From positions 1 to 58,910 of the IMG/VR virus record IMGVR_UViG_3300017694_000001: DNA of 58,910 nt; one strand, 5' to 3'. Each line of letters begins with the position of its first letter. Position 1 is the stretch's first letter. This document shows, piece after piece, positions 36,747-55,773 of the stretch. The notes beneath the pieces are model-generated. The model saw only the letters and a program-made list of their open reading frames with translations. It ran no database searches and was not told the origin of the DNA. The DNA comes from a virus. Made by a program: the position numbers and the translations under genes.

Positions 36747-37309
36747 AACCACCCACCCACGGCCCCCAAAGCTTCCACGGTGCCCCCGGCCTGCGCGAGG
36801 GTGGTAGCCGAAGCTTCTATGAAGTAGCCCAGCAAGCGCCGGTCGTACCGCCGACACCCTTGCCCCCACCCGTTCCCGCTCGCCCGAAGCCCGCCCTGCC
36901 GCCCACGTTGACGCTGCGGTATGACGAGCGCGGGCCCATCTGCGAGCTATCTAAAGCGCTGCGCGCCCTGCTGCCCCCCCTGAAAGAGTGCGAACGGGTA
37001 CTCTTGGTAGTGCCACACCAGCGCGGCGGGCAATGGTATCTGGATACGAACCCCAAGCCAGGCGCTGGGTATCGCATTCCCAATGCCGAGCGGGCGCAGT
37101 TCCGGGTACAGCCAATAAGCAAAATTCACTTCATGCGCCCGGTACCTGTATTGGAAGGTGCTGGCGGGCGGCCTGGCAAGGGCGAAGACCGCCGGGGCGG
37201 GTTGGCGGCGGTAAGCAATACCAATGAAGCGGTGGGCCTGCTGCGCTTTCGCTTGGCGCTGGAAGTGCCCGGCCATCCCGGCTACTACCAGTTGCTACGG
37301 GAGTTGTAG
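36743..37309 (+). CDS. Hypothetical Pro-rich protein (last early gene)
   Basis: 188 aa with ATGA coupling. Its stop codon lies inside copy 1 of the late 21-mer. Confidence 0.6.
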   Translation: MKPPTHGPQSFHGAPGLREGGSRSFYEVAQQAPVVPPTPLPPPVPARPKPALPPTLTLRYDERGPICELSKALRALLPPLKECERVLLVVPHQRGGQWYLDTNPKPGAGYRIPNAERAQFRVQPISKIHFMRPVPVLEGAGGRPGKGEDRRGGLAAVSNTNEAVGLLRFRLALEVPGHPGYYQLLREL

Positions 37310-37365
37310 CGCGGTATCGGGTGGATGGGCCACAGCCGGGTGCGGGCCCGGGGCAATTTCGGGGC
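37295..37365 (+). promoter_or_regulatory. Late leader module, copy 1 (21-mer CTACGGGAGTTGTAGCGCGGT plus CAATTTC box)
   Basis: Exact 21-mer at 37295..37315. A/T box at 37354..37360. The GTG start at 37366 is 71 nt from the first base of the motif. Confidence 0.7.
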
Positions 37366-37887
37366 GTGGACCCGACAAAACCCGACACTCCAACACCCGC
37401 GCAACAGCCGCTCGCCACTTGGCGGGCTGCTTTCATTAAGGCGCTGTCTGAAAATAGCAACGTGAGCGCGGCGGCGCGGGCGGCGGAAGTGAACCGGCAA
37501 TACTGCTATGAGTGCCGCGCTAATGACCCTAGTTTTGCTGCTGACTGGGATGAGGCACTAAAAATAGCAGTTGAAGGACTAGAAGAAAGGGCTTGGAATC
37601 GTGCCAAGTTTGCCGATATTCAGTACAGGTTTACCAAGACGGGCGAACCGATAATGCACCCGGTTACGGGTGAGCCCTACTACGAGCACGTAGGCAGCGA
37701 CACGGTTCTTCTGCGCCTGCTAGAAGCCCACAAGCCCGACCTGTACAAGCAGCGGAAAGAATTGACTGGCAAGGATGGCGCGCCGCTCGTGCCCCCGCCG
37801 AACACCGATAACTTATCGCGTGAAGACCTGCTGGCTATTCTGGCAGTGCGCCGCAAGCTAGCCGGCACGGAGGGCCAGGATACGTGA
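37366..37887 (+). CDS. terS: Terminase small subunit (HTH type)
   Basis: ..WRAAFIKALSENSNVSAAARAAEVNRQYCYECRANDPSFAADWDEAL.. is an HTH. Lies immediately upstream of, and overlapping, terL. GTG 37366 is chosen by analogy with the other three late modules (the track ORF starts at 37321). Confidence 0.65.
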   Translation: MDPTKPDTPTPAQQPLATWRAAFIKALSENSNVSAAARAAEVNRQYCYECRANDPSFAADWDEALKIAVEGLEERAWNRAKFADIQYRFTKTGEPIMHPVTGEPYYEHVGSDTVLLRLLEAHKPDLYKQRKELTGKDGAPLVPPPNTDNLSREDLLAILAVRRKLAGTEGQDT

Positions 37888-39341
37888 GCGCCATTGATAT
37901 TCTAGCGGGCCTGCCTACTGAGCAGCAACTAGTAGCTGCCCTGTGCCGCCGCCGCTTCTATGACTTTTTCCTTGAGTTCTGGGAAACTATCGAAGCCGCC
38001 GACCTCGTGCCCAACTGGCACATTGAATTCATTTGCGACCAATTGCAAGAGGTGTATGAGGCGTGGGCCAGGGGCGAAAGCCAGGCCGACGTGCTTATCA
38101 ACGTGCCCCCCGGCAGCAGCAAGAGTACGACCGTAACCCAGCTGTTTCCGGCCTGGCTGTGGGTAAAGAACGCCACCGTGCGCGTTATCAGCAGCTCCTA
38201 CGCCGCCGACCTGAGCACGGCGCACGCTGTCAAAACCAGGGACTGCATCACATCCGACAAGTTCAAGGCCGTCTTTCCCGGTTTAATCCAAATAAAACAC
38301 GACGAAGGTGGGAAAACCGCTTACCGCAACACGGAAAAAGGCCAACGCTTCACTACTTCTACCGGGGGCCGGGTAACGGGTATGCACGGTGATTTCATCA
38401 TTGTGGACGACCCAATAAACCCGGAAGAATCGGAGTCCGAGGCTACCCGTTTTCGGGCTAACCGCTTCGTATCGAAGACGCTCAGCACGCGCAAAACCAA
38501 TAAGAAGCGCAGTGTCACCATCATGGTGATGCAGCGCCTGCACGAAGCCGACCCGGCCGGCACTTGGCTGGCGGGCAAGAAGCAGCTGCGCCACATCTGC
38601 CTGCCCGGCTTTTTGAGCGACGACGTACGCCCCGCAGAGGCACGCGATTATTATGTGGACGGCCTACTCGACGCTAACCGACTCGACTTGCAGGCCCTGA
38701 ATCGGCTGAAAGAAGACCTGGGCAGCTACGGCTATGCGGGCCAGATTCAGCAGCGTCCGAGCCCCGAGGGCGGCGGGAAGCTCAAAAAGACGTGGTTCCA
38801 CAAGATTAGCTGGCCGGACTTCCTAACGCTTACCAACGGCCAGAAGGTGGTATGGCAGTTCGATGCCGATACTGCTTTCACAGCTGACCAAAAGAACGAC
38901 CCTACCGGCATCATGTCCTCGGCCTACGTGGGTAATACACTCTACATCCGCTACGTGGAGTGGGTGCGTTTGGAAATGGGCCCACTGTGTCGCCACCTGC
39001 CAGAGTTCGTACAAAAGCACGGCTACACGGCGGACAGTATGCTCTACATTGAGCCCAAGGCCAACGGCAAAAGCACGGTGCAGATTATCCGCGAAAGCAC
39101 AAAGCTCAACGTGGCCGAAGCGCCTACCCCGGTAGGTTCCAAAATGGAGCGCGTCAACGCCGCCGCCCCCTTCGCGGAATCGCTGCGGGTAGTGCTCATC
39201 GATGGCAACTGGAACACGCCCTTTGTGGAAGAGCTGAGCGCCTTCCCCAACGCCGCCCACGACGAAAGCGCCGACTTGCTCACGCAGGCCATTCGGCGGC
39301 ACCAGCCACTTGAACAAAAGAAACAACGATGGGTAATCTGA
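37884..39341 (+). CDS. terL: Terminase large subunit
   Basis: 485 aa. Walker A-like VPPGSSKST, Walker B FIIVDDP, and MQRLHEAD. The C-terminal nuclease half has acidic residues. Confidence 0.9.
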   Translation: MSAIDILAGLPTEQQLVAALCRRRFYDFFLEFWETIEAADLVPNWHIEFICDQLQEVYEAWARGESQADVLINVPPGSSKSTTVTQLFPAWLWVKNATVRVISSSYAADLSTAHAVKTRDCITSDKFKAVFPGLIQIKHDEGGKTAYRNTEKGQRFTTSTGGRVTGMHGDFIIVDDPINPEESESEATRFRANRFVSKTLSTRKTNKKRSVTIMVMQRLHEADPAGTWLAGKKQLRHICLPGFLSDDVRPAEARDYYVDGLLDANRLDLQALNRLKEDLGSYGYAGQIQQRPSPEGGGKLKKTWFHKISWPDFLTLTNGQKVVWQFDADTAFTADQKNDPTGIMSSAYVGNTLYIRYVEWVRLEMGPLCRHLPEFVQKHGYTADSMLYIEPKANGKSTVQIIRESTKLNVAEAPTPVGSKMERVNAAAPFAESLRVVLIDGNWNTPFVEELSAFPNAAHDESADLLTQAIRRHQPLEQKKQRWVI

Positions 39342-40654
39342 GCTTACTAGAAAAAGCCGCCGCCACGCTAGGCCGCGCCCGCGCCGCCTACGATGCGCCG
39401 CTACTCAAGGCGCTGCAAGTGGATAGTATAGGGCGTACGTTGCCTACTGGCTTCACCTATACCGGGGCCAACGGTCCGACGTGGCTCAATTTCGACCAGG
39501 CGTTGAGCAAGGACCAGTACCAGGGCGTAGTATACCTCATCATTAGTTCCATTCTGCGCAAGGCCAACGATGTGCCCTGGGGCGCGTTCCTGCCGGGCAA
39601 GAAAGACGAGCGGGCCGAATTAGTGAGCGCGAACCACCCGCTTAACAGCCTGCTATGGAAGCCCAACCCCCGCGAATCGTGGGCCGACTTAATAGAGGCC
39701 CTGGCCGGCAACCTGCTACTGCGCGGCAACTCCTACGGGCTGGGTATCATCCCAGCAGCTGGCTCGAAAAAAAGCCAGGTAGCCGAATTGTACTGGCTGC
39801 CAGCCGACCGCACCGCCCCGATAGCCGGTGACCGCTGGATTGATTCGGTGAAGGGCTACCAGTTCAAAGAAAACAACGGCGTGCCTGTCAAGTATGAGCC
39901 AGAAGACATTACCCACATCAAGTACTGGCATCCCGATAGCGGCGTGCTAGGGCTTTCGCCGTTGCAGGCAATGGTGAAGATGGTGACAGCCGCCGATAGT
40001 GGCATGAGCGCCCAGGTGCGGCAGTTCCAGAACCAAGGGCCGGCCGGGGTGCTGTTCGATGAAAGCGATGGAGAGCCGTGGAGCCCCGACCAGACGGGGC
40101 GCGTGCGCAGCTATTTCAATAGCTTTTTCAATGGTGGCCGGCGCGATACTGAGCTGCCAATTGTGGGGGGCAAATTAGGCTATGTCAAGTTGGGGCTGTC
40201 GGCGGCCGACCTCTCGGTATTGGAGGCGCTGCAAGTCACCACCCGCCAGCTGTGCAGTGGGTTCGGCTACCCGGCTGAGCTTCTGAACGACAAAGAGGCC
40301 AGTACCTACAATAATGTCAGCGAGGCCCGCAAGGCCGCCTACACCGATGCCGTACTGCCGCTGCTGCGCCGCATCCGGGACGGATTGAACCGCTTCGTCA
40401 CGCCCGGCTACACCGATGGCGCGTTCCTGGATATTATCACTACTGACATTCCTGAGTTACAAGCCGACCGCAAAGCGCAAGCCGAGGGCCTGGGGCTGGC
40501 GTGGTGGATTCCGGTAAAGCGCAAGCAAACCATCATGGGAGAGCCCGCCAACTGGCCCGGGCCCGAGTACATGGTCCCCTCTACGCTAGTAGGCTCCGAC
40601 GAACTAACGGCCGGGGTGCCAGCTGATGCGGCGGCGACCGGGGAGCCGAGCTAA
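39329..40654 (+). CDS. Portal protein (HK97-family type)
   Basis: 441 aa, directly after terL. ..LLWKPNPRESWADLIEALAGNLLLRGNSYGL.. is a typical portal block. Confidence 0.85.
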   Translation: MGNLSLLEKAAATLGRARAAYDAPLLKALQVDSIGRTLPTGFTYTGANGPTWLNFDQALSKDQYQGVVYLIISSILRKANDVPWGAFLPGKKDERAELVSANHPLNSLLWKPNPRESWADLIEALAGNLLLRGNSYGLGIIPAAGSKKSQVAELYWLPADRTAPIAGDRWIDSVKGYQFKENNGVPVKYEPEDITHIKYWHPDSGVLGLSPLQAMVKMVTAADSGMSAQVRQFQNQGPAGVLFDESDGEPWSPDQTGRVRSYFNSFFNGGRRDTELPIVGGKLGYVKLGLSAADLSVLEALQVTTRQLCSGFGYPAELLNDKEASTYNNVSEARKAAYTDAVLPLLRRIRDGLNRFVTPGYTDGAFLDIITTDIPELQADRKAQAEGLGLAWWIPVKRKQTIMGEPANWPGPEYMVPSTLVGSDELTAGVPADAAATGEPS

Positions 40655-40657
40655 GTT

Positions 40658-41407
40658 ATGAGTACGCTCGACGCCTACCACGCCACCCGCGCCCGCCAAG
40701 AAGCCCTCGTGCCCCGCTACGCCAAGAAGATGCGCCGCGCCCTCCAACTATCGGTAGCGCCCGCCCTGGCTCTGCACGAAGCCGGAGCCTCACCCGAGCT
40801 AGCGGCGGCTGGCGTCACGAGCAAGGAGGTAATCACCGTACTCGTGGCGCTGTACGTGGACTGCGGGTTAGCGGAGGCGCGCATCACCTACAACAGCCTG
40901 ACGCCCGCCGTGAAGGCCCTGGCTCCGGTGGCGCTCGTCAGCCAGTGGGGGGCGCGACTACGTGGCTTCATCACGGGCGAAGGCGCGGAGTCGGTGCGGC
41001 GCATCACCGAAACCACCCGCAAGAAGGTGAAGGCCGTGCTCCAGCAAGCCGCGGCAGCCGGCGACGGGGTAGCCGTAGCGGCCAAGAAGCTGCGCGACGA
41101 GGTGGCGGCGTTCTCGGTAGTGCGGAGCAAGCGCATTGTGCGGACGGAGTTGGTCAGCGCATCCAACTACGGTAGCACGCTAGGGGCTGAGGCAACGGGG
41201 CTGCGTTTGGAGAAGTTTTGGATAGCTACCCCTGACGGCAGGACCAGGCCCGAGCACGCAGCGGCCGATGGGCAGGGCGCGCCATTGCAGGGTGGCATGT
41301 TTACTGTTGGTGGGTATCCGTGCCGCTACCCAGGCGACCCTATTTTGCCAGCTGGTGAAAGGTGCAACTGCCGGTGCAGCGTAGGCTTCAGAAAACCAAT
41401 AATCTAG
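40658..41407 (+). CDS. Head morphogenesis protein (Mu gpF / SPP1 gp7 family)
   Basis: 249 aa. ..RIVRTELVSASNYGS..KFWIATPDGRTRPEHAAADGQ.. is the family signature. Confidence 0.85.
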   Translation: MSTLDAYHATRARQEALVPRYAKKMRRALQLSVAPALALHEAGASPELAAAGVTSKEVITVLVALYVDCGLAEARITYNSLTPAVKALAPVALVSQWGARLRGFITGEGAESVRRITETTRKKVKAVLQQAAAAGDGVAVAAKKLRDEVAAFSVVRSKRIVRTELVSASNYGSTLGAEATGLRLEKFWIATPDGRTRPEHAAADGQGAPLQGGMFTVGGYPCRYPGDPILPAGERCNCRCSVGFRKPII

Positions 41408-41420
41408 CGTATATTGCAGT

Positions 41421-41657
41421 ATGACACGCGAAGAGCTAGAGGGTAAAAAAATATGCTGCTCAGATGGCCGTGAGCTATACTTCTGCACACCTGCTGGCGA
41501 TGCCGGTAAGGCGCTATTGGAAATAGACCAAATACTTGTCTATGTCAGCGTTGGCGGCAGTGAGCCTGCGCTAAGCCGCACAACCCTGCAAGATGCTAGC
41601 ATGACATGTCTTGCAGCACAGCTATTAGGGACTGTGCTCGGACTAGAAGTTTCTTAG
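41421..41657 (+). CDS. Hypothetical protein
   Basis: 78-aa track ORF. Confidence 0.5.
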   Translation: MTREELEGKKICCSDGRELYFCTPAGDAGKALLEIDQILVYVSVGGSEPALSRTTLQDASMTCLAAQLLGTVLGLEVS

Positions 41658-41700
41658 CACCCGCCTCACCAGCCGCTTAGGTGGCGTATCTTCACGTAGT

Positions 41701-41925
41701 ATGGCAAAGCATAGCATCACCCTGGGGAATATAACCGTCGCAATACCCATGCCCGAGCAAGTATGTAATCCGCCTAAAATGGAGCATATTGAGGTAGAAG
41801 CCATCGGTATAAGCACAGTAGACGGAAAGCAAAAAACAATGGCCTTGCTTGTGCCAGCCAAGGAGATTAAAAGCCCAGCGGCACTAATTGCCTACGTGGC
41901 GGAAAATGCCTTCTTGGTGCCCTAG
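41701..41925 (+). CDS. Hypothetical protein
   Basis: 74-aa track ORF. Confidence 0.5.
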   Translation: MAKHSITLGNITVAIPMPEQVCNPPKMEHIEVEAIGISTVDGKQKTMALLVPAKEIKSPAALIAYVAENAFLVP

Positions 41926-41927
41926 CG

Positions 41928-42098
41928 ATGCCTAGCCGCCCCGCCGCCCACACCTGGCCAAACCATATCTGGTTTATCGCCTACGGCAAGAAGCCGCACA
42001 AGGCCCGCCTGCCTGGTCTGCAAATCGGAACGGCCGGCCGGTATCCGAGTGGCGTGCGTGTGTGGCGCTGCTTCTTCGAGGGGTTGTTGAGTAATTGA
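41928..42098 (+). CDS. Small basic hypothetical protein (56 aa, below track cutoff)
   Basis: Hand translation MPSRPAAHTWPNHIWFIAYGKKPHKARLPGLQIGTAGRYPSGVRVWRCFFEGLLSN. Starts 2 nt after the previous stop. Confidence 0.35.
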   Translation: MPSRPAAHTWPNHIWFIAYGKKPHKARLPGLQIGTAGRYPSGVRVWRCFFEGLLSN

Positions 42099-42129
42099 AT
42101 CATATTTGCACATCCTTTCTGGGGGATGC

Positions 42130-42156
42130 GGTATTAGCATGTGGTGTGCTAATACC
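42130..42156 (+). other. Perfect 10-bp stem hairpin preceding the terminator
   Basis: GGTATTAGCA (42130..42139) pairs with TGCTAATACC (42147..42156), with a 7-nt loop. Confidence 0.6.
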
Positions 42157-42161: not shown

Positions 42162-42190
42162 AAGCCTCGCCATATCGGCGGGGCTTTTTT
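42162..42190 (+). terminator. Strong rho-independent terminator
   Basis: AAGCCTCGCC (42162..42171) pairs with GGCGGGGCTT (42177..42186; one G-U pair), followed by a TTTTTT run to 42190. Confidence 0.8.
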
Positions 42191-42207: not shown

Positions 42208-42278
42208 CTACGGGAGTTGTAGCGCGGTTCTTGGGCGGGCGCGGCGAGTTTGGGGGTGGCTGGGAGAAACTTTGGGAC
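42208..42278 (+). promoter_or_regulatory. Late leader module, copy 2
   Basis: Exact 21-mer at 42208..42228. Box AAACTTTG at 42267..42274. The ATG at 42279 is 71 nt from the motif start. Confidence 0.7.
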
Positions 42279-43040: not shown

Positions 43041-43046
43041 TCCATT

Positions 43047-44285: not shown

Positions 44286-44288
44286 GCG

Positions 44289-44549
44289 ATGAAAGTTGAA
44301 CTGCTAAAAGACGTGCTCACTCCGCATAACGGGGTGGGCCGCGCAGGCCAAGTAGTCGAAATGAGCGATGCGCAAGGCCGCCAGTATATCAGCAAGGAGT
44401 TGGCAAAAGAGGCCGCCGCTGATGCTGAGGCACTGCCGCCCGACCCGAAGCCGGGTGCCGCAAAGCCGCTTACCCGCGACACCCTGAAAGAAGATAAGAA
44501 GGGAACCGCCCGCGATACCAAGCCCACCGGCCCGTCCGAAACCAAGTAG
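44289..44549 (+). CDS. Hypothetical head-associated protein
   Basis: 86-aa track ORF between the capsid and connector genes. Confidence 0.5.
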   Translation: MKVELLKDVLTPHNGVGRAGQVVEMSDAQGRQYISKELAKEAAADAEALPPDPKPGAAKPLTRDTLKEDKKGTARDTKPTGPSETK

Positions 44550-44552
44550 CCC

Positions 44553-46336: not shown

Positions 46337-46362
46337 TTTTAAACTTCTAATTTCTTACGCCA

Positions 46363-46812: not shown

Positions 46813-46814
46813 TA

Positions 46815-47653: not shown

Positions 47654-47658
47654 CTCCT

Positions 47659-50600
47659 ATGTCTACCACGCTCGGCGACTTGGCCGTACTTATTGGGGCC
47701 GAGGTAAACGAAGCCGGCTTTAATCGGGCCGTGGCGGCTATTGGGGGCATTGAAACGGCCGCCGCTAGCGCTGCCAACGGCGCTTCTGCCTCAATGGGGC
47801 AAATCGGTACAGCGGTTGACAAATCAGCCCAACGGATTACGGATGCTAGCGGCCGCATCCGTGATGGTTATGGCAAGTTTGTTTCTGCCAGCCAGCTAGC
47901 TGCTGAAGCTGCTGGCAATGTCGGCGGCAGCCTTGGCAATCTGAGTGACGTAGCCAGCCGAGCAAGCACCAGCATCAACGGCGGGCTGGTTTCATCGTTC
48001 GCAGCCTTTGACAGGGCCGTAAAGCCGCTAAATGAAGGCATTGGCCGCTTGGGGGAAGGTCTGAAAACGGCAGGCGGCAATCTTACTACTTACGTAACTC
48101 TGCCATTAGCCGGCCTTGCTACCGGGGCAATTATTGCCGCCGCTAAAGTCGATAGCCTCACCCGGGGCCTGCAAGCCGTTACGCAGCAGCAGTTAGGCGA
48201 GCAGGGCGTAACCGGATTGCAAGGCATTGCACAGGCCGCCGCTGACACACAGAATCGCCTAAAAGAACTCCGGGAAGTAGCCAAGTTGCCAGGCTTAGGC
48301 TTTACAGAAGCCATTCAGGGCGATATACGGCTGCGCGCCGTGGGGCTCAGCGCAGACCTCTCAAAGCGGGCGCTGCTTGCGTTCGGCAACGCCATTGCCA
48401 CCACTGGAGGCGGCAAAAGCGAATTAGACCGAGTGACAGTGCAGCTAGGCCAGCTGTCGGCCAAGGGCAAGGTGTTGGCGCAGGATTTACGACCCATTAT
48501 TGAGGCCGCACCAAGCGTAGCCACAGCCTTGCGCAAGCTTTACGACACAGTAGACAGCGAAACCATCAGCAAGTCGCTGCAGGCTCAGGGCAAAAGCAGC
48601 ACCGACTTTATCGCTACACTGACCGATGAGCTAGCCAAGCTACCGAAAGTAACTGGCGGGCTGGCTATCGCGGGCGAGAATATCAGTGACAGTTTGACGT
48701 TGGCCGGCTCTAAGGTCGGTCTCATCGCCGACAAGCTATTTGACCTCTCAGGCGTTGCCAACCGAGCAGGCGAGTTCATCGAAGGGCTGGCGGATAAATT
48801 CGCCGCGCTCGACCCTGGGACCCAAAAGCTGATTTTTGGTTTTGCTGGTATCGCCGCCGCCGCTGGCCCTATACTTATCGCCGTGGGGAGTATTGGGGCT
48901 GCCCTGCCCGCCGTAATTGCTGGTTTTGAGGCGTTAGGCGGCGCGTTAGAGGTATTGGGGGCGGGCCTAACATTGGCAACAGGCCCCGTTGGGTTAGCAG
49001 TGGCCGCGCTGGCCGCACTGGCAGCAGGCACCTACTACGTGGCAACAGCTAATAGCCGGGCCTACGATAGCTATTTAGAGCAAGCAGAGGCAACGCGCAA
49101 GCTAACGTCGGAAGTTAGCCCACTGCTTGGCCGCTACGACCAACTGCGGGCAAAATCTATCCTCACCACTGCCGAGCAAGCCGAATTAAAGGCCATCATC
49201 GAAAAGGTAACGGCCGCTATGCCTGCCGCTGGGCAAGGGTTAGATAACTACGGCAACTATTTGGGGCTGGCAACGGGCAAGGCGCGTGAGCTAATTGCAG
49301 CTAACCAGGGGCTTGAAAAGGCCATTGCTCTAAAAAGCCTACCGGCGCAGCAGCAAAAGCTAGCCGACCTTGAAAAGCAATATGCGAACCTTATTCGGAT
49401 TCGGGACGGGTTCAATGCCACTGGACAGTTCAGGTATAATGCTGACGATAAAACGGGGTATGCGCCAGGTACAAAAGAGCTTATCGAGTTTCGGGGCCAA
49501 CTCGAAAGCGTAAGCGCGTCTCTATCCGCACAGCAAAAAATAGTAGCTCAGCTAGGTGGTACAGTGAATGGCACAAATAAGGATTATACCTTATTTAATG
49601 AGACTTATAAAAAGTTTCAGGCCAACTTCTACGCCCAAAACGGAGGCGCTACAGTGCAGCTTGGTTTGCTTGAGGCGCTACGCATTAAGCTAAAAGATGT
49701 TACCGACCAACGCGAGTTAGAAACGACTAGGAAGGCTGTTTTTGCAGACAATAAGCTGATTGATAGCTATAAGAAACAAATAGCCGAGCTTGAGGGGGTA
49801 GATAAGGCAGGACAAAAGGCTTTTGATGCAATCGCAAAATTGCGGCTTGAGCTTAGCCGCCTGACCGCGCTAGATAAGTTACTAGGCGACGCACCTAGCC
49901 AGATTGAGGTGCTTGACCGCCGCAGCGCGGCGTTAACCCAGGGGCTTAAAATGCTAGTGGATAACGGCGTTAGCACAAGCTCCAAAGCATTTCAGGGCTT
50001 CGCTGGTGACTTAGTGCGCACAAGCCAAGCAGCGGATAAATTGAAAGGCGCGGTTGGGGGGATAGGTAGTACCCAGGCGAAGCTTACCGGGCTGCTGCCC
50101 ACTACGATAGGCGACACACTACCTAAAGATGTGGCTCGGCTATTAGGGGAGTATGCCAATAAGCCGATTGAGTTGCCATTGCACCTTGAAATAAAACCGA
50201 TTATTAATCCTAGCTTCAAAGGCACATTAGCCGATGGGCTGCTGGATGCGGCGAAGGCTGTAGGATTCAATACGGCAGGGCTCGGAGAGCCACTTGCCAA
50301 GTATGGCAAAGCCATACGCGACACAAACCAAGTTGCTTTGTCATTTGGTGGTACTTTGGGTGCGCTATTCAATGGCTTTGATGCCGGGAATGCAAAGGTG
50401 CAGGCTGCACGCGAATATTTGCAGGACTTGCGCGAGCGGGGCTATGGACCACTAAGCCCAGAGGTTCAAAAGGCGACCAAAGACCTGCGCGCTTATCAAA
50501 CAGAATCGGATAATGCAAAACTGCTTACTGATACGCTGTCTAATGGCTTTGGCTCTTTGGGTGATAGCATTGGTGGTGCTTTAGGCAATGGCTCGGATGT

Positions 50601-50967
50601 GCTGGCCGCCGCACTCAGCGGATTAATTGACGTGCTAGCTGATTATGCCTCGAAAAAGGGCAAATTGTTAATAGCAGACGGCCTTGCAGAGGTGCTTCTC
50701 CCAGGCGGGCAAACGCTTGGAGCGTTGAAAATCGCAGCGGGCACCGGCCTACTTATAGCTAGTGGCGTGGCGCGTGCAGGCGCAGCTTCTCTTCGAGGGG
50801 GTGCGGGAAGCTCGCTAGCTTCTCAGCCTCAAACAAATTATAACAGCACGACTGGCTTAAATCAGCAAAAATTGCAGATTGTAGTCACTGGAGAAATAAA
50901 GGGCCGCGGCCAAGACTTAGTGGCTGTGCTTCGAAGCCAGCAATATCGTAGCGAGCGCACTCTATAA
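47659..50967 (+). CDS. Tape measure protein
   Basis: 1102 aa, Ala/Gly/Leu-rich with hydrophobic central segments. It is the largest gene downstream of the chaperone pair. Confidence 0.9.
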   Translation: MSTTLGDLAVLIGAEVNEAGFNRAVAAIGGIETAAASAANGASASMGQIGTAVDKSAQRITDASGRIRDGYGKFVSASQLAAEAAGNVGGSLGNLSDVASRASTSINGGLVSSFAAFDRAVKPLNEGIGRLGEGLKTAGGNLTTYVTLPLAGLATGAIIAAAKVDSLTRGLQAVTQQQLGEQGVTGLQGIAQAAADTQNRLKELREVAKLPGLGFTEAIQGDIRLRAVGLSADLSKRALLAFGNAIATTGGGKSELDRVTVQLGQLSAKGKVLAQDLRPIIEAAPSVATALRKLYDTVDSETISKSLQAQGKSSTDFIATLTDELAKLPKVTGGLAIAGENISDSLTLAGSKVGLIADKLFDLSGVANRAGEFIEGLADKFAALDPGTQKLIFGFAGIAAAAGPILIAVGSIGAALPAVIAGFEALGGALEVLGAGLTLATGPVGLAVAALAALAAGTYYVATANSRAYDSYLEQAEATRKLTSEVSPLLGRYDQLRAKSILTTAEQAELKAIIEKVTAAMPAAGQGLDNYGNYLGLATGKARELIAANQGLEKAIALKSLPAQQQKLADLEKQYANLIRIRDGFNATGQFRYNADDKTGYAPGTKELIEFRGQLESVSASLSAQQKIVAQLGGTVNGTNKDYTLFNETYKKFQANFYAQNGGATVQLGLLEALRIKLKDVTDQRELETTRKAVFADNKLIDSYKKQIAELEGVDKAGQKAFDAIAKLRLELSRLTALDKLLGDAPSQIEVLDRRSAALTQGLKMLVDNGVSTSSKAFQGFAGDLVRTSQAADKLKGAVGGIGSTQAKLTGLLPTTIGDTLPKDVARLLGEYANKPIELPLHLEIKPIINPSFKGTLADGLLDAAKAVGFNTAGLGEPLAKYGKAIRDTNQVALSFGGTLGALFNGFDAGNAKVQAAREYLQDLRERGYGPLSPEVQKATKDLRAYQTESDNAKLLTDTLSNGFGSLGDSIGGALGNGSDVLAAALSGLIDVLADYASKKGKLLIADGLAEVLLPGGQTLGALKIAAGTGLLIASGVARAGAASLRGGAGSSLASQPQTNYNSTTGLNQQKLQIVVTGEIKGRGQDLVAVLRSQQYRSERTL

Positions 50968-50969
50968 GG

Positions 50970-51449
50970 CTATTTGTAGCCAATATTACACCCTGCAAAG
51001 GATTTCGTGGCAATAGACTGTAATTCAGACCAGGCTATGCCTACAGGCCCGCTGCTTTGGCCAGGATAGAGGACAGGCAATATTCTGTCCTGAATATTTG
51101 CCATTTGTGTCACGGCTGAGTTCCAAGTAAAAGTGCCGCGATAAGTAATATCGCTACCAGCGGCGGTTGGCACGATAGAAAACTGACAAGTCAGATAAAC
51201 CCCATTTTTTAGTGGCTTGGGCATACTGCTCACAAATAGCAGTTCTTTATCAGACTTATTTATAGCGCATCCTGCGGCCAATAGGCCAGCCCCTGCTTTT
51301 TTATAAGCAATGTTGGCGCTATCGGTTGTGTGTATAATTATTGAGCCTGCCCGCTTGGGCGGAACGGATAATTCAGGTCCCTCATAAGCTTTCTGCGCGA
51401 TACTTGGTGACCCAGAAAGTAGCAACCCAGCCAGTAGTAGCGTTTTCAT
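50970..51449 (-). CDS. Secreted protein (moron)
   Basis: 159 aa with a cleavable-looking signal (MKTLLLAGLLLSGSPSIAQ). Opposite strand inside the tail operon. Visibly more A/T-rich than its surroundings. Confidence 0.65.
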   Translation of the reverse strand: MKTLLLAGLLLSGSPSIAQKAYEGPELSVPPKRAGSIIIHTTDSANIAYKKAGAGLLAAGCAINKSDKELLFVSSMPKPLKNGVYLTCQFSIVPTAAGSDITYRGTFTWNSAVTQMANIQDRILPVLYPGQSSGPVGIAWSELQSIATKSFAGCNIGYK

Positions 51450-51461
51450 GCCTCCAAGCTA

Positions 51462-51496
51462 CGAAAAAGCCCCGACTCAATGCGAGTCGGGGCTTT
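51462..51496 (-). terminator. Rho-independent terminator (13-bp stem)
   Basis: AAAGCCCCGACTC (51466..51478) pairs with GAGTCGGGGCTTT (51484..51496). A T-run follows on the minus strand. Confidence 0.75.
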
Positions 51497-51501
51497 GAAT
51501 A

Positions 51502-51666
51502 TTAACAGCCGCAGCCTTTACCAGTTGTCCACGTGCAGCCATTCAGGCCACAATCAGATTTATTGTACTTACTGCACCCGCATTTACTAGTTGAAGGGCT
51601 TGGGTCGCCCCCGGTGCCGCAGGCGGAGAGTGCGGTAATAGTCAGGGCAAGAAAAAGTTTGCGCAT
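51502..51666 (-). CDS. Small Cys-rich lipoprotein (54 aa; moron)
   Basis: From the ATG at 51666: MRKLFLALTITALSAC (lipobox-like) followed by GTGGDPSPSTSKCGCSKYNKSDCGLNGCTWTTGKGCGC. The track ORF extends to a TTG at 51693. Confidence 0.55.
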   Translation of the reverse strand: MRKLFLALTITALSACGTGGDPSPSTSKCGCSKYNKSDCGLNGCTWTTGKGCGC

Positions 51667-51715
51667 AGAGATGAAGGGTAAGTGAGCTAGCAATATAGCA
51701 CTCTCGCCGCAAACC

Positions 51716-51786
51716 CTACGGGAGTTGTAGCGCGGTTGTCGGCCCGCGCCCCCTGCCTACCTCCCTAAAGCGGCCAAATTTGAGGC
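51716..51786 (+). promoter_or_regulatory. Late leader module, copy 3
   Basis: Exact 21-mer at 51716..51736. Box AAATTTG at 51776..51782. The GTG at 51787 is 71 nt from the motif start. Confidence 0.7.
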
Positions 51787-54700
51787 GTGGCCCTCATTCT
51801 TCTCCGTGAGCAATTCATTACCAACGCCGCTGGCGCGGTGGCCCCGTTTACCAAAGTTTCCGAGTTCTACGACGACGTAGACCGCAAGCCCTACACCACC
51901 CAGGCCGACGCGCAGACCAACACGCCGCGCTTCGAGATGGTGAAAGACGCCTCGTTTTCGCAGTTCGCCTACGCGCCGGGGAAAACGATGACCGTCTACT
52001 ACGACGGCAACGGCAGCTGGTACACCCGGAAAACGGCGGGTGTCATTCTCAACAACCTCAACGTCAAACTGGGCTTGCTGCCGGCCTACGTCAGCGCGTC
52101 GGGCGCTTCGGATGCGTGCGTGGATATTACCGGGCAGTACGGCCAGCCGCCCTACCGCATTACCCTGACGGGCTCGACGGGCGCCGCCGCTGGCTACTCC
52201 CGGACGGCAACCAGCGTCTCGGAGCTATTCCCGCAGCGGTTTTACAACCTGCCCGATGGCCAGTACGGGGTAGTCGTAACGGACGCGCTCAATCGTACGG
52301 ACGTGGATACGCTGACGGTGGGCGTGGACTCGGGGAAGGGCCGGGCTACCTTGCTCTACGAGAATGCCACGGCAGTTGTGACGGCCACCATTCAATGGAG
52401 CTACAACGCCCTGGGGCTGGTGCTCTACAACTACAACGGCAAGGCCCCGAGCACCTACACTGCCCCGGCTGGGACGCTCATTGACGGCTACCTCGTCAAC
52501 AATGGCGCAACCTGGCGGCGGGCCTATGCCAAGGGCACGACGCCTAGCGGCAATTTCACGGTGAATGACTTCATTTACTTTGAAGACACCCCCACCGCGC
52601 AGGATAGCCGCCTGAGCCTGCACAACCTCATTTACTTCCACCCCGACACGCCGGCCGAACAAAACGGCGGCATCGTAGTGGAAATGACTTATTCGCACGG
52701 CCCCCTGGCCTACGTGCTGACCGGCACCGTGGCAGGCTCGCCTATTCCATCCGTCACGAACGCCACGGGCCTGTTCGACGGGCTGGCGGCCGGCAGCTAC
52801 GACGTAACCATAACAGACACGCAAGGCAAGGTGCTGGTAGTGCCAGTGCTGCTGCAAAACCGTTACGGCAAGCGCTGGCAGTTGGACTACGACGACCTGT
52901 ATAGCACCCCCCTGCGGCTGGAGCTGTGGCAGCGAGGCTACACCGGCGCGGCGGATGATTTATGCCTGGCCGGCACGCCGGTCGAATACAGCTCGGATGG
53001 CCTGAACAGCGCGCTTGGCGGCCAGGGTGACATTCCGCCAGTCATCGGCTCGGAAGTAAAGCTGAATTTCCTGGTGGATACCGATTTGTTCGAGCCAGTC
53101 ATTACCAGCTCGTTCACCGACCGCTTTTTGCGGGCGGATATCTACTACAACAACCTGTTGGAGTGGCGGGGCTTCGTGCGGCCTGACTCCTACGACGCAC
53201 CGCTGCTGTCCGGCCCCCAGGCGGTGAGCTTGACGGCCACCGATGGCCTGGCTGCGCTGAAGGACACGTTCATGACCGGCCACGAGGGCCAGCGCCTGAT
53301 AGGCCACCGGCAGGTGCTCTACACCATCCTGCACTGCCTGAGCCGCACGGACGTAGCACTTGGTTTGCAAATATTTGTGAACCGGCGCGAGCTTTCGATG
53401 GATTCGACGGAGGCACCGGAGCTATCGGCCACCACCAACCGGACTGGTTATTGGAAAGAAGATAGTAACGAGCCAATTGACCAGCGCCAGGTACTCGACA
53501 GCGTGGTACAGCTGCTAGGCGGCACCCTAGTGCAACGGGAAGGCACCTGGCAAATCCGCAGCGCGCTCGAAGCTTCCCGCCGCGCCCCCGGCCGCCGCTA
53601 CAAGCCGGCTGGCACGCCGTTGCCCGCCCGCATCGCGCCCGCCCCGCTGGCAGCCATTGAGCCACCGGGCTTCAAGCGTCTCTACTGGCTCAATGCCAGC
53701 CAATACAAGAACGTGCGGGCCGGGTGGAAGTCACTCACGGGCAAAACCGATACCGGCTGGCTCGAAAACGCCTACGTGCCGGGGAAGGCCTTTTCCGACC
53801 GCTACGCCTGGCTGGGTAATGGAACTGGTACGCTACGGCCGGTTAGCGGCTGGCGGCCGGTCGTGGGCCAGCCGTTCCCGCTCACGCTGGTTTCGTCCGG
53901 GGCGAAAGGCAAGGATTATACCACCCGTTGGCCCCGTAGCCTGACGGGCTCGTCCTACCAAGCCACGCCCGTGCTATTAGGCCCGCCCCTGCCCCTGGCT
54001 GCTGGGTTGGAAGCGGTGCCCGCTACGCTGCAAGTCAAGGGCAATTTCGTGCCGGCTGAATACTACGTGGATGGGGACGGGCAAACCGTCATAGCCCCGA
54101 CCAACGGCCAAAAGGCGATTTTAGGGTACGAAGTAGTGGTGGATGGCCGGGGGGCCGGGGTGCAGTTCGTGGAATTCGCGCTCGGCAAGGGCGAGGAAGA
54201 CAAGGATATAACAGCCAGCGCGCCCTTATCCCCGCTCCCTAGCGGCACCGTAGCGGCCGAGATGCGGCTTTACACCTGGTATTCCGCAAACACGCAGTTG
54301 CTGACCAATTCGCCGCGGCTGCTTGTGCCCGGCACGCAGATTTTCAAAAAGGGGGAGACGCTGAAGTACGATTTCGGCACCGGCACCGACCGGCTGTTCG
54401 TGGCGCGTAAGGATACCACCATCGCGCAGGCCAGCGGCGTGTTCGCGGCCGGCATCTGGCCGGAGTACTTCGCGGAGCTGACGGCCACCAACGCCGCGCT
54501 GGGGAGTTTCTACCTGAGCGAAGTAGGCGTGCAGCTTACGCCGCAAAATGCCACCTGGGAAGGGGAAGACTACTTCCGCGCCGATGGCCCGGCCGGCAAC
54601 ATCCGGCCAACCGAAGAGCTGGAGGTGTTCCACGCCGACCCGCCCCGGCAGGCCGGCTTGTTCAGCGGCAACCTCTACGCCTTCGCCAAAGCAACCGGGC

Positions 54701-55125
54701 TGGTAGATGGCACCATTCCGACCAGTTGGGCCCGCAGCGTAGACTTGCTGCCTTCGCCGCTGTTTGAAAGCAACGTGCTCGATGGCATAGCCCTGCGCGC
54801 CAACCCCTCGCGCCTGGTGGTGGGGGATTTGCACTACGAAAACAAGCTACCCCCGCGCCTGCTCGATACCCTTGATGCGCCCTATGATGGCCGCTTGGCG
54901 GGGCGGCGCTTCCTGGTAATTGCGGTTTCGCCTTGGGACATGAAAGCGGCCACGGCCTCCGTTTCGCTCGTGGAAATCGGCAGGGGGCAAGGCGCGCTCA
55001 ATCCGTTTATGCTACTGCCGACCGGGGCCCGGGCGCTTCATAACTCCTACCCGTACCTGCCCGGTCAGTACGCCCGCTACGCCCGCACAGTTCACGGCGG
55101 CGGGGTGCGGGTGGTGCAGCAGTAA
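51787..55125 (+). CDS. Large distal-tail protein (baseplate hub / host-specificity-like)
   Basis: 1112 aa with GTG start. It is the first structural gene after the tape measure and moron. No specific family recognised. Confidence 0.55.
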   Translation: MALILLREQFITNAAGAVAPFTKVSEFYDDVDRKPYTTQADAQTNTPRFEMVKDASFSQFAYAPGKTMTVYYDGNGSWYTRKTAGVILNNLNVKLGLLPAYVSASGASDACVDITGQYGQPPYRITLTGSTGAAAGYSRTATSVSELFPQRFYNLPDGQYGVVVTDALNRTDVDTLTVGVDSGKGRATLLYENATAVVTATIQWSYNALGLVLYNYNGKAPSTYTAPAGTLIDGYLVNNGATWRRAYAKGTTPSGNFTVNDFIYFEDTPTAQDSRLSLHNLIYFHPDTPAEQNGGIVVEMTYSHGPLAYVLTGTVAGSPIPSVTNATGLFDGLAAGSYDVTITDTQGKVLVVPVLLQNRYGKRWQLDYDDLYSTPLRLELWQRGYTGAADDLCLAGTPVEYSSDGLNSALGGQGDIPPVIGSEVKLNFLVDTDLFEPVITSSFTDRFLRADIYYNNLLEWRGFVRPDSYDAPLLSGPQAVSLTATDGLAALKDTFMTGHEGQRLIGHRQVLYTILHCLSRTDVALGLQIFVNRRELSMDSTEAPELSATTNRTGYWKEDSNEPIDQRQVLDSVVQLLGGTLVQREGTWQIRSALEASRRAPGRRYKPAGTPLPARIAPAPLAAIEPPGFKRLYWLNASQYKNVRAGWKSLTGKTDTGWLENAYVPGKAFSDRYAWLGNGTGTLRPVSGWRPVVGQPFPLTLVSSGAKGKDYTTRWPRSLTGSSYQATPVLLGPPLPLAAGLEAVPATLQVKGNFVPAEYYVDGDGQTVIAPTNGQKAILGYEVVVDGRGAGVQFVEFALGKGEEDKDITASAPLSPLPSGTVAAEMRLYTWYSANTQLLTNSPRLLVPGTQIFKKGETLKYDFGTGTDRLFVARKDTTIAQASGVFAAGIWPEYFAELTATNAALGSFYLSEVGVQLTPQNATWEGEDYFRADGPAGNIRPTEELEVFHADPPRQAGLFSGNLYAFAKATGLVDGTIPTSWARSVDLLPSPLFESNVLDGIALRANPSRLVVGDLHYENKLPPRLLDTLDAPYDGRLAGRRFLVIAVSPWDMKAATASVSLVEIGRGQGALNPFMLLPTGARALHNSYPYLPGQYARYARTVHGGGVRVVQQ

Positions 55126-55129
55126 GGCG

Positions 55130-55200
55130 CTACGGGAGTTGTAGCGCGGTTGTCGGCTGGTAGCTCCCGCCTGGGTAGGTTGGGGCCGGAATTTCGGGGC
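55130..55200 (+). promoter_or_regulatory. Late leader module, copy 4
   Basis: Exact 21-mer at 55130..55150, with flanks forming GCGCTAC-N7-GTAGCGC. Box GAATTTC at 55189..55195. The ATG at 55201 is 71 nt from the motif start. Confidence 0.7.
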
Positions 55201-55773
55201 ATGGCTCTTCTACCACCGCAGACCAGCACCATCCCAGGCTACACCATTAGCAGCCTGCCGCCTGTCGTAACGCCCGCCACCGAGCTGCCGGGCGGCCTGC
55301 ACGAGGTAGAGGTGCCAGTTGGCAATGGCGACTACGAAAATCGGCAGATTACTACGGAGCAACTGGCCGCTTATTTCGGTGGCACCCCCGGCGGCACCCC
55401 CGCCCTCTCCGAAGCCCTCTCCCTCACCGCTGCCCAGGCCCGCCCCAACGCCCAACACCCCAATCCACAGGTAATACCCGGCCTGCGCTACCTCATAAGC
55501 GGCAACTGGAACAACGGCACCCTCTCAGCCACCGTGCATGTAGATGGCCTTACCGCTACCTCCTACGCCCGAACAGGGTGGGTACTCGATGACAACGATG
55601 TATACCAGCTGGTCCGGGTGGATGTAGCCGCGGGCATGGTAGACACGGAAGAGCTACGGGGCTTGTGGGTGAAGCAGTACGGGGAGGTAGACCCGGTAAA
55701 CGGCACCGTTGATGTTTGGCTGGGGCCGGCTACCACCCCGAACGCCACTATTCGCGTGGTTGTGGCCCCATGA
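55201..55773 (+). CDS. Tail-associated hypothetical protein
   Basis: 190 aa from the ATG at 55201 (the track ORF starts at 55150, inside the leader module). ATGA coupling to the next gene. Confidence 0.55.
   Translation: MALLPPQTSTIPGYTISSLPPVVTPATELPGGLHEVEVPVGNGDYENRQITTEQLAAYFGGTPGGTPALSEALSLTAAQARPNAQHPNPQVIPGLRYLISGNWNNGTLSATVHVDGLTATSYARTGWVLDDNDVYQLVRVDVAAGMVDTEELRGLWVKQYGEVDPVNGTVDVWLGPATTPNATIRVVVAP

What the first reader, a model, noticed from the sequence alone, without database searches (positions are those of the whole stretch)
37295..55203. An exact 21-mer sits exactly 71 nt upstream of the start codon of each of the four late gene blocks
CTACGGGAGTTGTAGCGCGGT occurs at 37295, 42208, 51716 and 55130, all on the + strand. 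In every case the first plausible start codon of the downstream block lies exactly 71 nt after the first base of the motif. These are GTG 37366 (small terminase), ATG 42279 (prohead protease), GTG 51787 (large tail protein) and ATG 55201.

A second conserved A/T box lies 5-7 nt upstream of each start codon: CAATTTC, AAACTTTG, AAATTTG and GAATTTC. It looks like a degenerate Bacteroidota -7 element (TAnnTTTG) missing the first T. The ~35 nt between the 21-mer and this box are not conserved, so spacing rather than sequence is constrained.

Copy 2 directly follows two strong hairpins and a terminator. Copy 3 directly follows the inserted leftward moron. Both therefore behave as restarts of late transcription.

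My reading is that these are activator-dependent or phage-sigma-dependent late promoters. They would give leaderless or near-leaderless mRNAs, with the 21-mer as the upstream binding site. The 21-mer contains CTAC-N7-GTAG, extended to GCGCTAC/GTAGCGC in copy 4. I do not recognise this motif from any described late-control system.
Basis: partly seen in the sequence, partly recalled or inferred. Interest (0 to 1): 0.8.

Follow-up and report, generated by a model that had tools for sequence, protein, structure and literature searches.

The report
Phage-specific late promoters with upstream activator site
A temperate Hymenobacter-type phage starts each of its four late operons with the same two-part signal, a private 21-base upstream site plus a host-type promoter box touching the start codon. 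Relatives keep this layout but each uses its own upstream word, which points to an undescribed late-gene activator system in Bacteroidota phages.

Summary
CTACGGGAGTTGTAGCGCGGT occurs exactly four times, all on the + strand. Each copy lies 71 nt before a start codon (37366, 42279, 51787, 55201). A second box, AAnTTnGnGnC-RTG, occurs only at these four places.

The window is a circular 58,787-bp temperate siphophage. Its closest relatives are Hymenobacter prophages.

Eight other phages have the same layout:
- an exact 15-24-nt block at about -72 to -50
- a non-conserved spacer of about 35 nt
- a Bacteroidota sigma-A -7 box (often a perfect TAGTTTTG) at -12 to -5
- usually 3-5 nt to the start codon.

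Each phage has a different block, repeated identically at its own late operon starts.

The layout co-occurs strictly with one small, always basic protein family (window 36743-37309). This family has no Pfam, PHROG or NCBIfam match and no structural match. Its gene always sits just upstream of terS, and its stop codon overlaps or abuts block copy 1.

Best reading: these are activator-dependent sigma-A late promoters, mostly giving leaderless mRNAs, with this protein as the likely phage-specific activator. This is analogous to RinA/Ltr, Mu C and P2 Ogr but not homologous to them.

All evidence is comparative. No binding or 5'-end data exist. The CTAC-N7-GTAG dyad is probably incidental.

The parts
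37295..37315 (+). Block copy 1 (upstream site, about -71 to -51). It overlaps the stop codon TAG 37307-37309 of the putative activator gene.
37354..37361 (+). -7-type box CAATTTCG, followed by 4 nt and GTG 37366 (terS). Promoter P1 drives terS, terL, portal and head morphogenesis genes (37366-41407).
42163..42190 (+). Intrinsic terminator (stem AGCCTCGCC / GGCGGGGCT, then T6) that ends the P1 unit and its moron ORFs (41421-42098).
   Evidence: the same arrangement occurs in relatives
42208..42228 (+). Block copy 2
42267..42274 (+). -7-type box AAACTTTG, followed by 4 nt and ATG 42279. Promoter P2 drives prohead protease, major capsid, connector, tail and tape measure genes (42279-50967).
51716..51736 (+). 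Block copy 3, after the leftward low-GC ORFs 50970-51449 and 51502-51693.
51775..51782 (+). -7-type box CAAATTTG, followed by 4 nt and GTG 51787. Promoter P3 drives the 1112-aa tail protein gene (51787-55125).
55130..55150 (+). Block copy 4, 5 nt after the stop codon of the 1112-aa gene.
55189..55196 (+). -7-type box GAATTTCG, followed by 4 nt and ATG 55201. Promoter P4 precedes p190 (55201-55773) and the 1195-aa ORF from 55770 that wraps to 570. Further + strand virion-protein and endolysin ORFs follow to about 6607; how far P4 transcription extends is inferred.
36743..37309 (+). Putative late activator: 188 aa, pI 10.1, last gene of the early cluster. It belongs to an uncharacterised family (75 representatives in 1.84 billion proteins).

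Best explanation
The four elements are late promoters read by the host sigma-A holoenzyme. They are too weak to fire alone and need a phage-made activator.

**Anatomy of each element**
- A 21-bp asymmetric upstream site at about -71 to -51, centred near -61.
- A GC-rich spacer of about 35 bp, constrained in length only.
- A -7 box xAnnTT(T/C)G at -12 to -5. It lacks the consensus first T, and no -33 element is present.
- Exactly 4 nt, then a purine that is the first base of the start codon. The transcripts would therefore be leaderless (two AUG, two GUG).

**Proposed mechanism**
The activator is most likely the basic 188-aa product of 36743-37309, the last early gene. It would bind the block in one orientation and recruit or stabilise RNA polymerase from a class-I-like position. 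This would switch on four units together: packaging/head, head/tail, tail, and tail-tip (probably continuing into lysis).

Copies 2 and 3 restart late transcription after a terminator and after leftward-transcribed morons.

**Shown versus inferred**
- Shown: the sequence pattern; its conservation of geometry in 9 phages; concerted replacement of the block between phages; strict co-occurrence with the protein family; synteny of that family.
- Inferred: that the box is used by sigma-A; that transcription starts at the start codon; that the block is bound by protein; that the binder is this family; the timing.
For: 1. Exactness and spacing in the window.

2. Nine distinct phages show an exact 15-24-nt block at a fixed offset of 56-62 nt (within a genome +/-1) from an A..TT[TC]G box: W, L001, L003, L004, L005, L006, L046, L049 and L044/L055. 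Each phage has a different block. L044/L055 has four copies at the four equivalent positions.

3. Between W and L044 the flanking coding sequence and the box are homologous, but the block is replaced at every copy. This is concerted change, as expected for a trans-acting specificity factor.

4. The block-to-box distance is constant. The box-to-start distance varies in relatives from 3 to about 35 nt. The constraint is therefore on promoter geometry, not translation.

5. The box equals the sigma-A -7 consensus at its published position, -12 to -5 (PMC9723704, PMC7366714). The hosts of relatives are Hymenobacter.

6. Co-occurrence: the layout is present in 9 of 9 phages that carry the 36743-37309 family and span at least 2 late operon starts. 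It is absent from about 27 TerL-related loci without a family match at the E-value cut-offs used (L029 gave one weak sub-threshold match).

7. The family gene lies directly upstream of terS, whichever of four terS types follows. Its stop codon overlaps or abuts block copy 1.

8. It is the only early protein of the window conserved across these phages.

9. All 77 family members are basic, with pI 9.0-12.0.

10. A phage whose family protein is 67-73% identical keeps 18 of 21 block bases. Protein similarity and block similarity correlate (Mantel r = 0.245, p = 0.015).

11. Blocks of 14 phages share semi-conserved columns: G at -66, AC at -56/-55, TW at -51/-50. This is as expected for one diverging family of sites.
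Against: - There is no experimental evidence of any kind: no 5' ends, no binding, no timing.
- The family has no recognisable DNA-binding domain. A confident AlphaFold model (pLDDT 84) matches nothing in PDB or BFVD.
- The protein-block correlation is weak and confounded by common descent.
- Leaderless mRNAs are rare in studied Bacteroidota, at 3.7-5.5% (PMC7366714, PMC9723704). Whether this phylum translates 5'-terminal GUG is unknown to me.
- No -33 element is seen.
- In L006 an HNH gene separates the family gene from the block, so adjacency is not absolute.
Confidence: 0.65

Rival explanations
1. The elements are activator-dependent late promoters as above. However, the block is bound by some other phage protein (for example one of the HTH proteins or an unannotated small protein). 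The 36743-37309 family would then do something else at the early/late junction.
For: The family has no known DNA-binding fold. The window encodes HTH proteins at 22461-22736 and 13877-14488. Only about 10 kb upstream of terL was available for most relatives.
Against: No other early protein of the window is shared by the block-carrying phages. The family co-occurs strictly with the layout. All its members are basic. It occupies the classic position of late activators (PMC3753634).
Confidence: 0.15
2. The block acts in RNA, as a processing site, antitermination site or translational element in read-through transcripts. The A/T box would then be a translation signal rather than a promoter.
For: The 21-mer can form a 5-bp hairpin. 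Copies 1 and 4 lie directly after upstream genes and would be transcribed by read-through. Bacteroidota lack Shine-Dalgarno sequences and use A-rich contexts (abstract of PMC6847099, listed).
Against: - Folding energies of the four elements are no better than shuffles (z from -0.86 to +0.26). The four copies give different folds with no covariation.
- Blocks of other phages have no common hairpin.
- There is no Rfam match.
- Copy 2 lies after a terminator and copy 3 after opposite-strand genes, so there is no obvious upstream transcript.
- The constant distance is block-to-box, not block-to-start.
Confidence: 0.07
3. The block is the promoter, or part of it, for a phage-encoded RNA polymerase or sigma-like factor. 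Exact ~20-mers repeated before operons are typical of T7- or N4-type promoters.
For: Four exact 21-mers in one orientation. Several large ORFs have no annotation (51787-55125, 55770-570, 2051-4447).
Against: - No RNA polymerase or sigma domain was found in any protein scanned.
- The unannotated large ORFs sit in the tail module after the tape measure gene.
- A host-type -7 box is conserved 35 nt downstream at a fixed distance in all nine phages. A self-sufficient phage promoter would not need it.
- A site at -71 to -51 is too far upstream for a sigma -35-type contact.
Confidence: 0.05
4. The block is a repressor or silencing site that keeps late operons off in the lysogen (comparable to stoperators of cluster A mycobacteriophages), or a recombination or packaging signal at module boundaries.
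For: The phage is temperate, with an integrase and a CI-like repressor. The sites are asymmetric and in one orientation. They lie at module borders, next to morons.
Against: - No copy of the block lies in the immunity region or anywhere else.
- The sites lie upstream of the promoter box at a fixed helical distance, not inside transcribed DNA.
- Boundary sequences for recombination should be shared between phages, whereas these are private to each phage.
- Four dispersed copies do not fit a pac or cos site.
Confidence: 0.05

Closest known systems
Ltr superfamily of late activators (RinA, ArpU, LtrA/B/C) of Gram-positive temperate siphophages (PMC3152322, PMC3753634)
   Same: Both are small basic proteins encoded by the last gene of the early cluster, immediately upstream of terS. 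Both are thought to bind DNA upstream of terS and switch on packaging, morphogenesis and lysis genes. In both, different phages have different specificities.
   Different: There is no sequence or fold similarity. The hosts are Bacteroidota with a -7-type promoter. There are four dispersed promoters rather than one before terS. The site is a single asymmetric block at about -61 rather than a repeat region. The transcripts are mostly leaderless.
P2 Ogr / P4 Delta / 186 B with four late promoters PP, PO, PV, PF (PMC3931495)
   Same: Both have four late promoters that share one upstream element. A single small phage activator turns them on together.
   Different: The P2 element is a dyad, TGT-N12-ACA, and Ogr is a C4 zinc-finger protein. 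Here the block is asymmetric and the candidate protein has no C4 motif and no homology. The site is centred near -61 here; my recollection of about -55 for P2 is unverified.
Phage Mu C protein and the late promoters lys, I, P, mom (PMC4461284)
   Same: Both have four activator-dependent late promoters with a poor upstream promoter element.
   Different: From my own knowledge, C binds a dyad overlapping the -35 region. Here the site is two helical turns further upstream and is not symmetric.
Bacteroidota sigma-A (sigma-ABfr) promoters (PMC7366714, PMC9723704)
   Same: The -7 box TAnnTTTG lies at -12 to -5. Relatives have perfect boxes.
   Different: The window's four boxes lack the first T, and no -33 TTTG is seen. 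The predicted 5' UTR is 0 nt, whereas only 3.7-5.5% of mRNAs in the studied species are leaderless.
Start-associated sequences (SAS/ESAS) of cluster K mycobacteriophages (own knowledge, not checked here)
   Same: Both have a conserved short element directly before start codons, plus an upstream extended element before a subset of genes.
   Different: SAS contains the ribosome-binding site and is shared across the phage cluster. Here the proximal box is a promoter element and the distal block is private to each phage.

Membership tests
Bacteroidota sigma-A promoter | -7 box TAnnTTTG | tested here: inconclusive
   The window has CAATTTCG, AAACTTTG, CAAATTTG and GAATTTCG, matching 5-7 of 8 positions with the first T always missing. 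Homologous promoters in relatives have perfect TAGTTTTG, TAGGTTTG or TAGCTTTG.
Bacteroidota sigma-A promoter | -33 element TTTG / TTG about 19 nt upstream of the -7 box | tested here: not met
   By inspection of the aligned copies, no TTTG is conserved in the spacer around -33. This fits activator dependence. The -33 motif was also not recovered in F. johnsoniae (PMC7366714).
Bacteroidota sigma-A promoter | Transcription start about 5 nt after the G of the box | not testable with these tools
   This needs 5' end mapping. The geometry predicts +1 at 37366, 42279, 51787 and 55201.
Ltr/RinA/ArpU late activators | [quoted passage not shown] | tested here: met
   Window 36743-37309 lies before terS 37366. 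The same holds before four different terS types in relatives. One exception has an inserted HNH gene (L006).
Ltr/RinA/ArpU late activators | Small basic protein | tested here: met
   188 aa, pI 10.06. All 77 family members have pI 9.0-12.0.
Ltr/RinA/ArpU late activators | Sequence membership in one of the Ltr families described in PMC3753634 (RinA, ArpU, LtrA = Sigma70_r4, LtrB = DUF1492, LtrC) | tested here: not met
   No Pfam, NCBIfam or PHROG family matches the window protein. Among 57 members scanned, only stray sub-threshold hits appeared. No fold match was found.
Ltr/RinA/ArpU late activators | Binds DNA upstream of terS and is sufficient to activate it | not testable with these tools
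   This needs EMSA and reporter assays.
P2 Ogr-type late control | Dyad TGT-N12-ACA and C4 zinc-finger activator | tested here: not met
   Blocks are not dyad-symmetric. No CX2C...CX4C motif is present in the window protein (sequence).
Phage RNA-polymerase promoters (T7/N4 type) | Phage-encoded RNA polymerase gene | tested here: not met
   No RNAP or sigma domain was found in the proteins scanned. Not every small ORF was scanned.

The most novel reading that the evidence does not exclude
The 36743-37309 family is a new-fold, sequence-specific DNA-binding transcription activator of Bacteroidota phages. It would read an asymmetric ~20-bp site from a fixed position near -61. Its specificity would be re-written wholesale between related phages, with all sites in a genome changing together. 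This would give a natural set of at least nine mutually orthogonal activator/site pairs that drive leaderless operons, including GUG-initiated ones.
Probability: 0.45. Interest if true: 0.7.

Novelty: new variant of a known kind. Interest (0 to 1): 0.62.

Why it matters
I found no description of late-gene control for temperate phages of Bacteroidota in the searchable literature. A 2026 preprint on Bacteroidales prophages only hypothesises an activator.

This finding offers four things:
- a concrete promoter architecture
- a candidate activator family with no known fold
- culturable lysogens to test it in (H. mucosus DSM 28041, H. fodinae 92R-1, H. psychrophilus CGMCC 1.8975)
- natural specificity swaps that map which bases matter.

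If confirmed, it would add a new DNA-binding fold. It would also provide orthogonal, tightly off/on promoter-activator pairs for a phylum with few genetic tools. Finally, it would show that whole late operons can rely on leaderless translation, partly from GUG, in a phylum where leaderless mRNAs are rare.

Tried and rejected
**Searches that found nothing or little**
- Exact 21-mer scans of viral contigs and genome contigs gave 0 hits. The word is private to this phage.
- blastn of the head region against GenBank phages gave only a 66-nt capsid match.
- The search for related loci with the single 188-aa protein or the 1112-aa tail protein found no relatives.
- The broad family alignment A5 was too diverse to scan with.
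- Narrower scans of viral and metagenome contigs added only two new loci.

**Ideas tested and rejected**
- Minus-strand ORFs at 55.5-58.9 kb are antisense shadows of a + strand ORF that wraps round the circle.
- A guide-RNA-like complementary copy elsewhere in the genome: none within 6 mismatches flagged as meaningful.
- Dyad symmetry or a hairpin as the recognised feature.
- G-quadruplex or other conserved content in the spacer: G-rich in some copies, C-rich in copy 3 (by eye).
- A known fold for the protein: two Foldseek PDB runs and one BFVD run gave nothing below E = 0.04. A PDB profile search gave nothing.
- An AbrB-like reading of the 'VRLPNRVTLS' motif was my guess from the sequence and was not borne out by any search.

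**Weak leads, not used as evidence**
- Weak sliding-clamp hits in Foldseek (TM about 0.15).
- A sub-threshold HTH_23 insertion in one member, P0049.
Full report
**1. Observation**

The 21-mer CTACGGGAGTTGTAGCGCGGT occurs four times, all on the + strand, at 37295, 42208, 51716 and 55130. No shuffle of the window produced a match. No further copy has up to 5 mismatches on either strand.

An alignment of the four regions shows three things:
- the exact block
- about 35 nt with almost no conserved columns
- a second conserved stretch that ends in the start codon.

Written as AAnTTnGnGnC-RTG, this second stretch occurs only at these four sites, against 0.17 expected. The distance from the first base of the block to GTG 37366, ATG 42279, GTG 51787 and ATG 55201 is 71 nt each time.

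TerS homologues of seven relatives align from residue 1, and protease homologues from residues 1-2. The earlier in-frame starts listed mechanically (37321, 42189, 55150) lie in or beside the block.

**2. Context**

The first 123 bases equal the last 123, so the window is a 58,787-bp circle.

It is a temperate siphophage:
- integrase 12228-13523 (-), CI-like repressor 13877-14488 (-), antirepressor, methylase, beta-clamp and a replication initiator
- terS, terL, portal, head morphogenesis, protease, capsid, head-tail adaptor, major tail protein, tape measure and endolysin.

The apparent leftward ORFs at 55.5-58.9 kb are antisense artefacts. One + frame is open from 55713 across the window end to 570. 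It has an ATG at 55770 that overlaps the stop of p190 as ATGA.

The four elements therefore head four rightward units:
- P1, 37366-41407: packaging and head, followed by small low-GC ORFs and a terminator at 42163-42190.
- P2, 42279-50967: protease to tape measure, followed by two leftward ORFs with signal-peptide-like N termini.
- P3, 51787-55125: a 1112-aa tail protein.
- P4, from 55201: p190, the 1195-aa ORF, and further + strand virion-protein and endolysin ORFs up to about 6607. How far P4 transcription reaches is inferred.

The phage has no close relative among GenBank phages. TerL relatives of 54-79% identity are prophages in Hymenobacter mucosus, H. fodinae, H. psychrophilus and other Hymenobacteraceae and Chitinophaga.

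**3. Relatives keep the layout and change the word**

The 21-mer itself is absent from public viral and genome collections. It is also absent from all TerL relatives fetched.

The same positions in relatives carry other exact repeats:

| Phage | Block | Copies seen |
|---|---|---|
| L001 | GGTTTCGGCGTCTGTAAACC | 2 |
| L004 | AAACGATGTAGCGCACTCAT | 2 |
| L005 | CGGCCTGTTCACTCAACCAAA | 2 |
| L003 | GCGAGGTATTCGACAAGTT | 2 |
| L006 | CCCGCCCGATCCGTTCGACAACTT | 2 |
| L046 | AGGCAAGCGTAGACC | 2 |
| L049 | CACGGCCTGTAAACCACT | 2 |
| L044/L055 | TCGGGGCCCGCCTACCAGTA | 4 |

In the two-copy phages, one copy lies before terS and one before the protease gene. Only these two positions were covered by the DNA held for those loci.

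L044/L055 is one 57-kb contig. Its four copies lie before terS, protease, the large tail protein and the p190 analogue, matching the window.

Within each genome the offset from block to box is the same to within 1 nt, and between genomes it is 56-62 nt. The copy before the protease gene follows a terminator in every phage seen.

Between the window and L044 the upstream coding sequence and the box align. The block is replaced at each site.

Exact identity confined to about 20 bp inside non-conserved DNA, with all copies changing together between phages, is the signature of a site read by a phage-specific trans-acting factor.

**4. The proximal box is a promoter element**

In relatives the box is frequently the perfect Bacteroidota sigma-A consensus TAnnTTTG, as TAGTTTTG, TAGGTTTG or TAGCTTTG. 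Published transcription start maps place this box at -12 to -5 (PMC9723704; consensus also in PMC7366714).

In the window exactly four bases separate the final G of the box from the start codon at all four sites. The predicted +1 is therefore the A or G of the start codon, giving a leaderless mRNA.

In relatives the gap is usually 3-5 nt. It is 7 nt at one promoter and about 35 nt before terS genes of the DUF5681 type (L046; by sequence similarity also L055). The conserved distance is thus block-to-box, not block-to-start. This argues for a transcriptional rather than a translational role.

The window's four boxes all lack the first T, and no -33 TTTG is present. This fits weak promoters that need help.

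The window's 12 perfect TAnnTTTG boxes are fewer than the 23 expected by chance. Several lie in the early region, including divergent pairs at 14499/14555, 24424/24475 and 28182/28240. Where a + strand ORF follows, it starts 50-160 nt downstream. The predicted leaderless layout is thus seen only at the four late promoters.

**5. The candidate activator**

Block copy 1 overlaps the stop codon of ORF 36743-37309. Homologues lie at the same place in the relatives. Each ends just before, within or at the end of that phage's block.

Family properties:
- A profile search of 1.84 billion representatives found only 75 members.
- None has a Pfam, NCBIfam or PHROG assignment.
- In three further contigs the gene again sits directly upstream of terS, although the terS genes belong to three different Pfam families.
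- All 77 sequences held are basic, with pI 9.0-12.0 and a median of 10.6.
- Among 53 early ORFs of the window, it is the only one conserved across the block-carrying phages.

Co-occurrence is strict. The block-box layout is present in 9 of 9 distinct phages that carry the family and span at least two late operon starts. About 27 TerL-related loci have no family match at the cut-offs used, apart from one weak sub-threshold match in L029, and none of them shows the layout. Their only hits were two AT-rich 12-mers.

A phage whose protein is 67-73% identical keeps 18 of 21 block bases. The three protein pairs with the highest identity also rank among the highest block similarities. Overall the correlation is weak (Mantel r = 0.245, p = 0.015) and cannot be separated from common descent.

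Blocks of 14 phages were aligned on the box. They share semi-conserved columns at -66 (G), -56/-55 (AC) and -51/-50 (T, A/T). These exceed the 99.9% null for single columns, although the phages are not independent. The sites look like one diverging family with private flanks.

**6. What the protein is not**

An AlphaFold model built on 57 sequences is confident (pLDDT 84, core above 90). It is mainly beta.

It has no match in PDB (best E = 0.6). In BFVD the only match is a marginal one to an uncharacterised Klebsiella phage protein (E = 0.047). A profile search of PDB sequences found nothing.

DNA binding is therefore inferred from charge, position and co-occurrence, not from fold.

**7. Rivals**

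- RNA element: the four elements fold no better than shuffles, adopt different structures and show no covariation. There is no Rfam match. Blocks of other phages share no hairpin. Two copies have no upstream transcript to sit in.
- Dyad: CTAC-N7-GTAG is no better than chance (P = 0.22). Seven of the eight other phages also show no significant dyad; only L001 is marginal (P = 0.048). The L045 variant has lost the CTAC arm. The site is asymmetric and always in one orientation.
- Phage RNA polymerase or sigma: none was found in the proteins scanned, and a conserved host-type box would be superfluous.
- Repressor or stoperator-like site: no copy lies in the immunity region.
- Recombination boundary: such sequences should be shared between phages, not private.

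**8. Comparison with known systems**

Functionally this resembles three systems:
- the Ltr/RinA/ArpU activators of Gram-positive siphophages, which are small basic proteins encoded just upstream of terS that bind upstream of terS (PMC3152322, PMC3753634)
- the four-promoter late regulons of P2 (Ogr, TGT-N12-ACA; PMC3931495)
- the four-promoter late regulon of Mu (C protein; PMC4461284).

It is not a member of any of them. There is no sequence or fold similarity, no dyad and no zinc finger. The host promoter type is different, and the transcripts are predicted to be leaderless.

Full-text searches found no description of late promoters or late activators for Hymenobacter or other Bacteroidota temperate phages. 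A 2026 preprint on Bacteroidales prophages only hypothesises such a regulator.

**9. Verdict**

The finding is a new variant of a known kind of control, with an undescribed protein family as the probable activator.

Confidence by claim:
- about 0.75 that these are late promoters with a phage-specific upstream site
- about 0.55 that the 36743-37309 protein is the binder
- about 0.6 that the window's four transcripts are truly leaderless.

Noticed in passing
window 1-123 and 58788-58910: The ends are identical, so the window is a circular or circularly assembled 58,787-bp genome. The ORF listing therefore misses a 1195-aa ORF running from 55770 over the end to 570.
   Followed up: yes
window 29916-30035: Four or five iterons (TGACTATAGTCAAA, partly palindromic) lie inside the gene of an HTH_36 replication-initiator-like protein (29595-30683). 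This is a likely origin of replication.
   Followed up: partly
window 14499/14555, 24424/24475, 28182/28240, 16472: Perfect TAnnTTTG boxes are under-represented (12 against 23 expected). Several lie in the early region, some as divergent pairs, for example between the CI-like repressor gene and the rightward early genes. Where a + strand ORF follows, the leader would be 50-160 nt, unlike the late promoters.
   Followed up: partly
window 41421-42098 and 50970-51693: Low-GC inserts sit at the ends of late units. Three small + strand ORFs lie before the terminator. Two leftward ORFs have signal-peptide or lipoprotein-like N termini. These are moron-like cargo. L044 has a homologous flank ('AATATAGCAC') before its third block.
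   Followed up: partly
window 24567-25853: The phage encodes its own DNA polymerase III beta-clamp homologue. Foldseek hits of the putative activator included several sliding clamps, but at meaningless scores (TM about 0.15). No link is claimed.
   Followed up: no
L055 7489-8452: Two tandem paralogues of the putative activator family lie directly before block copy 1 of that phage.
   Followed up: partly
L006 8396-9425: An HNH endonuclease gene is inserted between the family gene and the block/terS promoter. Adjacency of gene and site is therefore usual but not obligatory.
   Followed up: partly
L030 about 250-350: Before terS of a H. lapidiphilus prophage, only a 17-codon remnant resembling the family's N terminus (MKQPPHGFTGAPG...) is left. 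A TATCTTCG box still lies 3 nt before the ATG. This may be a decayed regulator.
   Followed up: no
family proteins P0004, P0019, P0021, P0029, P0033, P0044, P0054; P0049: A subset carries a 15-25-residue insertion with two cysteines near the C terminus. P0049 has an inserted sub-threshold HTH_23-like segment (residues 52-79).
   Followed up: partly
-20 to -13 of the late promoters in relatives (e.g. L003 9446-9465, L007 5476-5495): A G-run (GGGGCGGG or GGCGGGG) directly precedes the -7 box in most relatives and is weaker in the window. It may be an extended promoter element.
   Followed up: no
window 37366 and 51787; terS of L001-L007: Predicted leaderless genes often start with GTG. If transcription really starts there, 5'-terminal GUG would have to be translated in Hymenobacter.
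   Followed up: no
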